Made by a program: the position numbers. A DNA stretch of 64,000 nucleotides from Podarcis vaucheri (Eukaryota): NCBI GenBank assembly GCA_965113315.1, contig OZ220375.1, one strand, 5' to 3'. This document shows positions 43,501 to 46,500 of the stretch, piece by piece; position 1 is the stretch's first letter; each line of letters starts with the position of its first letter.

Positions 43501-46500
43501 TGAAGCACATTTGTCACATTCAATATTTAAACTGCTTTCTTTTATCCCTTATATATTGAATTCAGATTGTAATGCAATACATACAATATGTAAAAAAATA
43601 AAAGCAGCGAGAAATCATACAGCATCTAGCACATTGCAATGGTTACAAGAAGTAGAAAAATCATTAAGTGGTCTGCCCAGGCCCTCAGGAATTTTCAAGT
43701 GGTGCAAGGCTGGGGGGAGTTGGGAACCACTGGAATAAACTCAATTTAGATTTTCCTCCTTTAGTACCCAAGTGTCACCCTGGAGAATTTCAAACTTTAA
43801 AAACCAAACATTTTTGGGGAATCTTAAGATCCCTTCCTTGAGAATAGCAGCATTTCCTATAAAGCAAGCTGCTTTAAAGTGGTCCACAATGTACAAAAAA
43901 TGTTCTGGGGAGAAGAGGAGACTGTAGGCTTGCAGGGGTTCATCCTTTGATGCAAGAAGGGGGTAAATCCCAGCAGATATGCTTGCACAAGAACAAGCTG
44001 TAATGTTCCCACCCACACTGGCCGTAGCCCACGAGGCTGAGGGCCCAGGTGGCAAGTGCCAGATTGGGCTGGTTGGGACTCACAGGGCACATCCAAGATG
44101 AGTTTTGGCACCTGGGGCAGAAAATCCACGCTGTTTTGTGAGGAATGAAGCCGCCTGAAATCTGGCGCCCAAACCTGCTGCTTGAGGCAGCCCTCTCTCA
44201 CTTTATCAACGATGTCAAAGAGAACAACTACCAGACTTTTAGAAGACATCTGAAGGCAGCCCTGTTTAGGGAAGCTTTTTATGTTTGATGGATTACAGTA
44301 TTTTTATATTTTTTGGAGGCTGCCCAGAGTGGCTGGGGAAGCCCAGCCAAATGGGTGGGGTATAAATAATAAATAATTATCATCATCCTCATCATCATCT
44401 CCTGGCAAGGCTGATCCTGCTGCCGGGAAGCTTTAGCGCAAGCCCGTCTCCCTCCCTTCCCTCCCAGCCAGACGATGATGGGCTCTTACTCCCCGTGAAG
44501 CCCCCGCAAGAACCGCCGCCCACCAGTGGCGTAGCGGGTGCAGGGGGGGGGGCCGGCCGCAACATCTGGGGGTTAGGGTTAGGGGGCGCAAATCCACGGG
44601 TTAGGGGGCGCAAATTACTTGCCTTGCCCCGGGTGCTGACAACCCACGCTACGCCACTGCCGCCCACGAGCCCCGGGGCCGAAGAGGCAGGCGGCGGAGG
44701 CGCAGAAGGAGAGAAGCGGCGCAGGCCCACCTTGGCCCGGACGACCTACTTCGCAGGGTTGTTGTGTCGCGAAGCGAGCGAGCCAAGAGCTTTTCCGAGG
44801 ACAAAACAGCGACAGAGCAAGAGGAAATCCTGTGGCTACTGGTGGTCCTTATTTCACAGCGACCCCCCTTGCCAAAGACAGCACCACACGCGCAGCCGGC
44901 TGCGTGCACACGTTCGCTCTCCTCCCCGTGTCACCTACCTCACAAGCTCCTCTCCTCGCGGAAGACACCCCTCCCCTCCCGCCCAGCGGCCTTTTCGCAC
45001 CGCCTCACGGGAAGGCGACGGACCCGCCCGGCCCGAAAGGAGCCGCTCGCCAGCCGTGGCCTCGGGCCCTGCCGCTCCGCCTGGCGGCCAGAGAGGGCGC
45101 TGGCGGGAGCGAAGCCGGGCCCAGCCTGCCGCCGCCGCCGCCGCTAACTCGGGGGACGTTTCCCGGCGTGCCTTCGAACCCGGAACTGGGCGTCGTGAGG
45201 GGAAAGAGGGCGGGCGGGAGGAAGGGGAGGCGGCGCAGAGCGAGAGCCGACCTCCTCGTCTTCCTCCTCTCCGTGTCGGCGCCCGCCCGCCCGCCCGCCG
45301 CGCACTTCCCCTGGAGGCCGGGGGGAAAGAGAGCCACAGAGCCGCAGCGGCAGGGAGACCGAGCCACCCACCGCCTCACGCGCCCCCCCCCCCGCCATGA
45401 GAGCTGCCGCCATCTTCCCCGAGCCCGGGGGCCGCCGCCGCCTCCTCCTCTTTCTGGTGAGCTGAGGGGAGAAGGAAGGGGGGCGGGCGGGGGTGGGGGA
45501 AGAGCCGCCTGAGGCGGAGATACTGGGGGGGGCGGGGGGTTGTTGCTGTTTCGGGGGGGGGCGCTGGGCTGCGGGTCCTCCCGGCTCGCCCGGTATCCCT
45601 GTGAAACCGGGTCGGGGTGGGGCGGCCGCTAGCGCTGGTGTGGCTCAGCCTGATAGGCTGCCGGCTCCTCAGACCCGGAATCGGCCCGGCAGCCGGCGTG
45701 GGGGCGCGGTGCTCGGCCCGGCTCGCTGAGGGGAAGGAAGGCGCCTCGTTCCGTGCCCCCCAGCAGTGGCGTAGCGTGGGGGGTGCAGGGGGGGCCCCCG
45801 CACCAGGCGCAACATCTGGGGGTTAGGGTTAGGGGGTGCAAATCCACGGGTTAGGGCGCGCAAATTACTTGCCTTGCCCCGGGTGCTGACAACCCACGCT
45901 ACGCCACTGCCCCCCAGACCCATCTGAGAAGCCCAGCTGAGGCCCTGGGTGGCTTCAGAAGAGGGTTAGGGGAAGACGAGCCACGGCGACTGTGGCCTGG
46001 CTTACCCAGCTGGAGGCAGCCACGCTGAAGTGTATTTTATGGTGTGTTTGTGGGTCTTCTCTCTCTGTATCGCGTAACTATGGCACGAAATGAGTTGCGC
46101 TGCTTGGATGCCTTTGGTCAGGGCTGTTTGGTCCGAGATGTGGTTTAAGAGCCCAAGGAGGCGTCGTGCAAGGCCTTGGTCTACAAAGTTGCCACCCTCT
46201 AATTTCCTCCAGACTCTGCACCTGCAGGGTGTAGGTGGCTGTCCGTTATAGGGACTCAGACTTCACAACTTCTCAAGGAACCGGGATCCCAGCTTAGGAG
46301 TTGCAGCCGAGAAAGACCGGGATTGGAGGGGGGAGACTTGTTTCGGACACACCTCCCCCCCAGACCCAAGTTCAGTTTGAAGTGTGAAAGTCAGGCTGTG
46401 TCAACCTGTGGAACTTGCTCCAACAGGAGGCAGTGATGACACCAACTTGGATGACTTTACAGGAGGGTTAGAAGAATTTGTGGAGGAGAAGAGGTCTGTC

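What the first reader, a model, noticed from the sequence alone, without database searches (positions are those of the whole stretch)
44516..45917. Two independent insertions of the same hAT MITE bracket the INVS/ERP44 bidirectional promoter
Seen: near-identical ~140-bp MITEs in the same orientation at 44524-44659 and 45764-45909 with different perfect 8-bp TSDs, so two separate events. Each lies ~300 bp past a first-exon donor, and I saw no other copy in the 64 kb. Both TSDs are C-rich. Inference: the family prefers CpG-island/open-chromatin targets or hopped locally. The outer TIRs enclose ~1.1 kb with both promoters and both first exons, a potential composite transposon and a deletion substrate for direct-repeat recombination.
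Basis: partly seen in the sequence, partly recalled or inferred. Interest (0 to 1): 0.72.

Follow-up and report, generated by a model that had tools for sequence, protein, structure and literature searches.

The report
Two hAT-like MITEs flanking a promoter
Two copies of a small non-coding "cut-and-paste" transposon landed separately on the two edges of the CpG island that drives the lizard genes INVS and ERP44, which is a tidy but ordinary example of how this transposon class tends to land near gene starts.

Summary
Copies of 136 bp (44524-44659) and 146 bp (45764-45909) lie in the same orientation. Each has perfect terminal inverted repeats starting CAGTGGCGTAGC and its own perfect 8-bp target-site duplication (CCGCCCAC; CCCCCCAG). 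They are the only such structures in the 64 kb, and none arose in 100 simulated sequences. The window is from a lizard, not a human: per-exon identity to Podarcis muralis inversin is 94-100%. The two genes are confirmed as INVS (minus strand) and ERP44 (plus strand). The copies sit on the two shoulders of the window's only large CpG island (44360-46181). Copy 2 lies 307 bp past the ERP44 exon-1 donor. Copy 1 lies about 280 bp past an INVS donor that is inferred only from a consensus match. Two independent insertions are well supported. The hAT assignment rests on the 8-bp duplication and the terminal CAGTG motif; no autonomous partner could be sought. A preference for CpG islands or a local hop is plausible and matches published hAT behaviour, but it cannot be tested without the host genome. 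The composite-transposon idea has the right geometry but no evidence. This is ordinary biology: probably a new member of a known kind, of low interest.

The parts
44516..44523 (.). Left target-site duplication of copy 1 (CCGCCCAC)
   Evidence: Read directly; identical to 44660-44667
44524..44659 (+). MITE copy 1, 136 bp. 13-nt perfect inverted repeat; 5 nt are missing from the left arm relative to copy 2
44660..44667 (.). Right target-site duplication of copy 1 (CCGCCCAC)
44576..44615 (+). Internal 18-nt unit GGGTTAGGGGGCGCAAAT, present twice at a 22-nt period and preceded by a (TTAGGG)2-like stretch. The same layout occurs in copy 2 at 45826-45865
45756..45763 (.). Left target-site duplication of copy 2 (CCCCCCAG)
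45764..45909 (+). MITE copy 2, 146 bp, with a 17-18-nt perfect inverted repeat
   Evidence: (I2)
45910..45917 (.). Right target-site duplication of copy 2 (CCCCCCAG)
44360..46181 (.). The only large CpG island in the window (1822 bp, GC 0.68, CpG obs/exp 0.77). The segment between the copies has GC 0.72 and obs/exp 0.85; the 500-bp outer flanks have 0.52/0.38 and 0.55/0.43
45397..45456 (+). ERP44 exon 1, coding part (ATG to CTG|GTGAGC donor)
   Evidence: tblastn with named reptile ERP44 proteins; donor consensus
44933..44941 (-). Putative donor of a non-coding INVS exon 1 (GAG|GTAGGT; last exon base 44939). Inferred only
   Evidence: Consensus scan; no transcript evidence
37809..37916 (-). First coding exon of INVS (residues 1-36, 100% identical to Podarcis muralis inversin). 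A CAG acceptor lies about 30 nt upstream of the ATG
56765..56836 (+). ERP44 exon 2 (approximate ends). ERP44 intron 1 is therefore about 11.3 kb and contains copy 2

Best explanation
A short, non-coding, non-autonomous DNA transposon of the hAT type (MITE-like) inserted twice, in separate cut-and-paste events. One copy went into each shoulder of the CpG island that holds the head-to-head INVS and ERP44 promoters of a lizard. Each event made its own 8-bp target duplication. The placement most likely reflects two filters acting together. First, hAT transposases integrate preferentially into accessible, TSS-proximal, CpG-island chromatin. Second, purifying selection removes insertions in the core promoter and first exons but tolerates them a few hundred bp into the first introns. 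Whether the second copy came from the first by a local hop or from elsewhere is open. Shown: the two elements, their ends and duplications, the independence of the events, gene identities, and the island position. Inferred: the superfamily, the integration bias of this family, the role of selection, and the INVS exon 1 position.
For: Structure: perfect inverted repeats and perfect, different 8-bp duplications. [quoted passage not shown] The elements are non-coding and only the inverted-repeat stem folds stably. No Rfam family overlaps them (4 weak matches in 43500-47000, none overlapping). Position: both lie on the edges of the only large CpG island. Of 32 intra-window repeat intervals, only these two fall inside the island. 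Given two insertions uniform over the window, P(both inside a 1.5-kb island) = 5.5e-4 and P(1250 bp apart or less) = 0.039. Published hAT behaviour: TcBuster favours CpG islands, DNase sites and transcription start sites in human cells (PMC3499496, passages). Tol2 and Ds are enriched near TSS and all vectors are enriched in CpG islands in zebrafish (PMC4825651, passages). hAT elements make up 2.3% of a lacertid genome and are noted in and beside Hox gene introns (PMC9498476, passages). Both copies keep CpG obs/exp of 0.64-0.69 against 0.36 for the window. This fits residence in an unmethylated island, or youth.
Against: The sample is two, and the finding was picked post hoc from a scan, so the conditional probabilities overstate significance. 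The family's genome-wide copy number and distribution are unknown. No autonomous hAT partner was seen: no hAT transposase domain appeared among 420 of 503 gene-strand ORFs of at least 35 aa, or among 150 of 161 opposite-strand ORFs of at least 62 aa. The duplications do not fit the usual hAT pattern with T at position 2; both have C there, though both have A at position 7. A 9-bp duplication parse is possible. The hAT share reported for a lacertid (2.3%) means that two hAT fragments in 64 kb is by itself unremarkable. The INVS exon 1 and TSS are not verified.
Confidence: 0.6

Rival explanations
1. Local hop: one copy is the daughter of the other. It was re-inserted about 1.1 kb away after excision or replication of the donor, as hAT elements often do, with no special affinity of the family for CpG islands.
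For: The copies belong to the same family, lie in the same orientation, are 1.1 kb apart, and no third copy exists in 64 kb. Transposition to linked sites is a known hAT trait (my recall for Ac/Ds). Local hopping is treated as a known confounder in PMC4825651.
Against: The copies differ by 6 substitutions and two 5-nt gaps in 146 columns, so they are not recent sisters. Without other family members I cannot tell whether they are each other's closest relatives. A hop does not explain why both ends of the island were hit rather than any site within a few kb.
Confidence: 0.25
2. Chance: an abundant family inserted uniformly, and two neutral copies happen to lie 1.1 kb apart at this promoter.
For: hAT elements make up 2.3% of a lacertid genome, so hAT fragments are common. 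The finding was chosen post hoc. P(1250 bp apart or less | two in the window) = 0.039 is not extreme.
Against: Both copies fall within the one 1.5-1.8-kb island: P = 5.5e-4 for two uniform insertions. The two target 8-mers are 6 of 8 identical, with p about 0.014 for random 8-mer pairs drawn from the island. No other intra-window repeat family has entered the island.
Confidence: 0.15
3. Sequence-directed targeting: the transposase prefers a C-rich 8-mer of the type CCSCCCAS (GC-box-like). This motif is concentrated in CpG islands, so the island position is a by-product of target sequence rather than of chromatin.
For: The duplications share 6 of 8 positions (p about 0.014), and both are preceded by G. 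Outside the duplications and the elements, the pattern CC[CG]CCCA[CG] occurs 8 times on both strands. Three of these lie within 44900-46400 and 5 in the remaining window of about 62 kb.
Against: There are only two sites, and the pattern was defined from them. hAT targets are usually weakly specified, and palindromic as nTnnnnAn (recall).
Confidence: 0.1
4. Composite (macro)transposon or exapted boundary pair: the two copies act together, either to mobilise the 1.1-kb promoter segment or as regulatory or insulator elements around it.
For: Direct orientation gives a 5' end and a 3' end facing outward. This is the geometry of Ac macrotransposons that excise and reinsert in maize (PMC9910405, passages). 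The copies are symmetric about the island centre.
Against: Each copy has its own duplication and the outer flanks differ, so the unit did not insert here as a composite. The middle segment has no second copy in the window. The left inverted repeat of copy 1 has lost 5 nt. Matches to a CTCF-like consensus are not above chance in the window: 59 against 48.5 +/- 7.3, with 12 of 100 shuffles reaching 59. The internal units do not match within 3 mismatches. There is no Rfam match.
Confidence: 0.04
5. Segmental duplication or assembly artefact produced the second copy.
For: The elements are nearly identical, close together, and in the same orientation.
Against: The duplications differ, the flanks are unalignable, and the copies differ by substitutions and gaps. 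The flanking repeats pair with other places: 44211-44399 with 18090-18295, and 46064-46218 with 46662-46813. The only N run is at 25184-25331, far away.
Confidence: 0.02

Closest known systems
Non-autonomous hAT families of Anolis carolinensis, e.g. hAT-N1_AC (135 bp) and the SPIN/hAT-N3 group (PMC3014272, Table 1 as shown)
   Same: Size class of about 135-146 bp, 8-bp target duplication, terminal YARNG motif, short inverted repeats. The first six bases, CAGTGG, are shared with hAT-N1_AC, hAT-N3_AC and SPIN.
   Different: Beyond CAGTGG the inverted repeat (CGTAGCGTGGG) matches none of the listed Anolis repeats. The internal sequence carries a (TTAGGG)2-like stretch and a doubled 18-nt unit. 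The duplications are C-rich, not NYYTARRN or NTCTAGAN. The host is a lacertid-like lizard, not an iguanian.
Integration profiles of active hAT vectors: TcBuster, Tol2, Ds (PMC3499496; PMC4825651)
   Same: Insertions favour transcription start sites, CpG islands and open chromatin. Both copies here lie within about 0.3 kb of first exons, inside a CpG island.
   Different: Those are de novo experimental insertions counted in thousands. Here there are two old, fixed, natural insertions that have also passed through selection, and the transposase is unknown.
Ac/Ds macrotransposons and alternative transposition in maize (PMC9910405; Huang and Dooner 2008 seen only in its reference list)
   Same: Two hAT ends in direct orientation enclose host DNA.
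   Different: There is no sign of mobilisation. Each copy keeps its own duplication, one inner-facing repeat arm is damaged, and the enclosed DNA is an essential promoter pair.

Membership tests
hAT superfamily (non-autonomous element) | 8-bp target-site duplication | tested here: met
   2 of 2 copies have perfect 8-bp duplications. A 9-bp parse is possible because a G precedes both, but it breaks the symmetry of the inverted repeat.
hAT superfamily (non-autonomous element) | Terminal motif YARNG and short terminal inverted repeats (about 10-25 nt) | tested here: met
   The ends read CAGTG...CACTG. Perfect inverted repeats are 13 nt (copy 1) and 17-18 nt (copy 2). The criterion is as worded in PMC3014272.
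hAT superfamily (non-autonomous element) | Target consensus nTnnnnAn (consensus recalled; similar patterns appear in Table 1 of PMC3014272) | tested here: inconclusive
   A at position 7 in 2 of 2 copies; T at position 2 in 0 of 2 (both C). Two sites cannot define a logo.
hAT superfamily (non-autonomous element) | An autonomous partner with the same ends that encodes a hAT transposase (BED finger, DDE core, hAT dimerisation domain) | not testable with these tools
   No eukaryotic genome collection was available. Within the window, no hAT transposase domain was found in the ORFs scanned against Pfam: 420 of 503 gene-strand ORFs and 150 of 161 opposite-strand ORFs.
MITE | Short (under about 800 bp), non-coding, with inverted repeats and a target duplication | tested here: met
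   136 and 146 bp, with no coding capacity.
MITE | High copy number in the genome | not testable with these tools
   Only 2 copies in 64 kb. There were 0 exact matches of a 22-nt end segment in the prokaryote genome collection, which is uninformative for a lizard.
Composite / macrotransposon | The whole unit is bounded by one shared target duplication, or dispersed copies of the enclosed segment exist | tested here: not met
   The outer flanks are CCGCCCAC and CCCCCCAG, each matched by its own inner copy. There is no second copy of 44660-45763 in the window. The genome-wide search was not possible.
Bidirectional CpG-island promoter (INVS/ERP44) | Two divergent genes with start sites less than 1 kb apart in one CpG island | tested here: inconclusive
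   Genes and strands are confirmed, and there is a single 1.8-kb island. The ERP44 ATG is at 45397. INVS exon 1 is inferred from a donor-like site only. No transcript or CAGE data were available.

The most novel reading that the evidence does not exclude
This is a promoter-shoulder-homing hAT MITE family. Its unknown transposase would select C-rich, GC-box-like 8-mers or the nucleosome-flanked edges of unmethylated CpG islands. Copies would then accumulate in pairs around bidirectional promoters, where directly oriented pairs could occasionally mobilise or delete whole promoter-plus-first-exon modules.
Probability: 0.1. Interest if true: 0.55.

Novelty: new member of a known kind. Interest (0 to 1): 0.24.

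Why it matters
If the family as a whole is enriched at CpG-island edges, it would be a natural vertebrate record of the TSS and open-chromatin bias that is otherwise known mainly from engineered hAT vectors. It would also be a handy marker for dating promoter-proximal insertions in lacertid lizards. As it stands, it is one well-formed example. It does not change what is known about hAT elements, INVS or ERP44.

Tried and rejected
(1) miRNA or other structured-RNA reading. Rfam at E <= 1 over 43500-47000 gave 4 weak miRNA-model matches, none overlapping a copy and all far below their gathering scores. Folding shows only the inverted-repeat stem as stable (z = -2.0 and -3.2).

(2) CTCF or insulator reading. 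A recalled CTCF consensus with up to 3 mismatches gave 59 window matches against 48.5 +/- 7.3 expected. The internal units do not match. One 2-mismatch match spans the junction of the duplication and the repeat in copy 1 only.

(3) G-quadruplex reading. No canonical four-tract motif with loops of 7 nt or fewer lies inside either copy.

(4) A larger duplication around the pair. The neighbouring repeats pair with other places.

(5) Literature look-up of the inverted repeat. The 12-nt string gave 0 papers. Four 11-12-nt variants gave 10 papers, all unrelated by title and abstract and judged to be chance or primer matches from the listing only.

(6) Exact 22-nt search of the prokaryote genome collection gave 0 hits, as expected for a lizard element.

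(7) An autonomous hAT in the window: none. Of the gene-strand ORFs, 83 of 503 (minus strand, 1-9.7 kb) were not sent to Pfam; that stretch was covered by tblastn only. Of the opposite-strand ORFs, 11 of 161 (GC-rich frames inside the island) were dropped.

(8) Pfam did not flag ERP44 exons 2-4 at E <= 0.01. They were found by tblastn with named reptile proteins.

Full report
**What is there.** Reading 44300-46200 and the repeat search show two elements in the same orientation, at 44524-44659 (136 bp) and 45764-45909 (146 bp).
- Both begin CAGTGGCGTAGC and end GCTACGCCACTG.
- The perfect inverted repeat is 13 nt in copy 1, which lacks 5 nt of the left arm, and 17-18 nt in copy 2.
- Copy 1 is flanked on both sides by CCGCCCAC, and copy 2 by CCCCCCAG.
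- The copies share 130 of 146 aligned columns. They differ by 6 substitutions and two 5-nt gaps, both gaps in the G/C-run-rich 5' third.
- The 3' 114 nt align without gaps at 96%.
- Sequence beyond the duplications does not align.

**More than chance.**
- blastn with word size 7 finds only these two full-length copies in 64 kb. All other hits are 17 nt or shorter.
- A de novo scan looked for a perfect inverted repeat of at least 11 nt directly abutted by a perfect 8-bp direct repeat. It returned exactly these two elements, and nothing in 100 first-order Markov simulations of the window.
- One caveat: a G precedes both left duplications and also ends the element. A 9-bp duplication can therefore be drawn, but then the terminal bases of the repeat arms no longer pair.

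**Whose DNA and which genes.** I take the contig for a lizard, not a human.
- An ankyrin exon (30512-30757, minus strand) finds inversin. The best hit is Podarcis muralis at 97%, followed by other squamates at 90-93%. In all, 601 proteins had E <= 1e-10 among 672 candidates.
- Local tblastn with that named protein places nine INVS coding exons on the minus strand at 94-100% identity. The first (residues 1-36) is at 37916-37809, with a CAG acceptor about 30 nt before the ATG.
- On the plus strand, the exon at 63793-63984 matches solved ERp44 structures at E = 1.1e-28 and differs from the human chain at several residues.
- Named reptile ERP44 proteins place exon 1 at 45397-45456 (donor CTG|GTGAGC). 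Exons 2-5 lie at about 56765, 57691, 58108 and 63793.
- All of this was done exon by exon.
- The N run at 25184-25331 was left as it is.

**Position.**
- The window has one large CpG island, 44360-46181 (1822 bp, GC 0.68, obs/exp 0.77). The other 13 small CpG-rich patches are at most 794 bp, and several coincide with repeats or a LINE ORF.
- The stretch between the copies has GC 0.72 and obs/exp 0.85. The 500 bp outside them have 0.52/0.38 and 0.55/0.43. The copies therefore sit on the two shoulders of the island.
- Copy 2 starts 307 bp after the ERP44 exon-1 donor, inside the 11.3-kb intron 1.
- Copy 1 ends about 280 bp from a consensus-like donor (GAG|GTAGGT, last exon base 44939) on the INVS strand. 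A second donor-like site at 44731 exists, and there is no transcript evidence.
- Of 32 intra-window repeat intervals (9666 nt), only the two copies lie inside the island.

**What kind of element.**
- The 8-bp duplication, the terminal CAGTG (YARNG) and the short inverted repeats are the features that the Anolis DNA-transposon survey gives for all its hAT families (PMC3014272, passages and Table 1 read).
- Only the first six bases (CAGTGG) are shared with any inverted repeat listed there, so this is a different family.
- The elements cannot encode a protein. Only the repeat stem folds stably, and no Rfam family overlaps them.
- Internally, each copy has a (TTAGGG)2-like stretch that occurs nowhere else in the window. 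Each also has an 18-nt unit repeated at a 22-nt period, which may be subterminal transposase-binding repeats (inference).
- No hAT transposase is present in the window.
- The inverted-repeat strings were not found in the searchable literature in any relevant paper. Supplementary files and Repbase/Dfam could not be consulted, so 'undescribed' is provisional.

**How it most likely came about.** There were two independent cut-and-paste insertions. Their placement fits what active hAT elements do.
- TcBuster favours CpG islands, DNase-sensitive sites and start sites in human cells (PMC3499496).
- Tol2 and Ds are enriched near start sites and in CpG islands in zebrafish (PMC4825651).
- Purifying selection would then clear insertions from the core promoter and first exons, leaving survivors just inside the first introns (inference).
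- Conditional on two uniform insertions in the window, both falling in a 1.5-kb island has P = 5.5e-4, and lying 1250 bp apart or less has P = 0.039. These figures are post hoc and rest on two events.
- The two targets are 6 of 8 identical, with p about 0.014 for random 8-mer pairs from the island. This hints at a C-rich target preference that would by itself steer the family to CpG islands. That too rests on two sites.
- hAT elements occupy 2.3% of a lacertid genome (PMC9498476), so their mere presence here is unremarkable.
- A local hop of one copy from the other cannot be separated from two arrivals from elsewhere.
- The 6 substitutions and two gaps show that the events are not recent. With a recalled squamate rate of about 1e-9 per site per year, the order of magnitude is 20 million years, which is a rough inference.

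**Composite transposon and deletion substrate.**
- The outward-facing ends have the geometry of maize Ac macrotransposons (PMC9910405).
- However, each copy has its own duplication, the outer flanks differ, copy 1's left arm is damaged, and the 1.1-kb middle has no second copy in the window.
- The locus is therefore not the product of a composite insertion, and nothing shows that it has moved.
- A recombinational deletion would remove both first exons and the promoter, and should be strongly selected against (inference).

**What stayed unchecked.**
- Family copy number, distribution, target-site logo, autonomous partner, and presence or absence in related species were all unchecked, because no eukaryotic genome collection was on hand.
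- The prokaryote genome scan gave 0 hits, which is uninformative for a lizard element.

**Verdict.** The finding is a clean but ordinary case: probably an undescribed member of a known kind, and of low interest unless genome-wide mapping shows island-edge homing.

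Noticed in passing
window 31711-33065 and 41505-42871 (minus-strand ORFs 31882-32739 and 41784-42545): Two Tc1/mariner elements, 96.4% identical over 1368 nt, lie in INVS introns. They have inverted repeats of about 93 nt (the second has 203 nt, 41394-41596 / 42774-42976). Their transposase ORFs of 286 and 254 aa hit HTH_Tnp_Tc3_2 and DDE_3. They look young.
   Followed up: partly
window 22717-23865 (minus strand): A 383-aa open frame has a reverse-transcriptase domain (RVT_1, E = 5.4e-24) in a GC-rich, CpG-rich patch. 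It is a LINE fragment inside an INVS intron.
   Followed up: no
window 3207-3575, 14493-14861, 35109-35408, 55411-55726 and others: A repeat family of about 300-370 bp has up to 5-6 partners in the window and a high CpG obs/exp (0.69-0.92). It is probably a young SINE. A related-looking tail ending in an A/T-rich simple repeat lies at 44211-44399, about 120 bp from MITE copy 1, and pairs with 18090-18295. The name Squam1 comes to mind from PMC10058329 but was not tested.
   Followed up: no
window 44570-44584 and 45820-45834: The only (TTAGGG)2-type telomere-like motifs in the 64 kb lie inside the two MITE copies. If the family is abundant, it could seed short interstitial telomere-like sequences.
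   Followed up: partly
window 50159-50306 and 53567-53715: Another pair of repeats of about 149 bp (86% identical, same orientation) lies in ERP44 intron 1. It has no terminal inverted repeats or evident target duplication.
   Followed up: partly
window 25184-25331: A run of 148 N (an assembly gap or a masked stretch) lies inside an INVS intron. It was left untouched.
   Followed up: no
window 58006-58230 (plus strand): The ERP44 exon carrying the CRFS active-site motif was not flagged by Pfam at E <= 0.01. It aligns at 86-88% to reptile ERP44. This is a reminder that short exons can escape the domain scan.
   Followed up: yes
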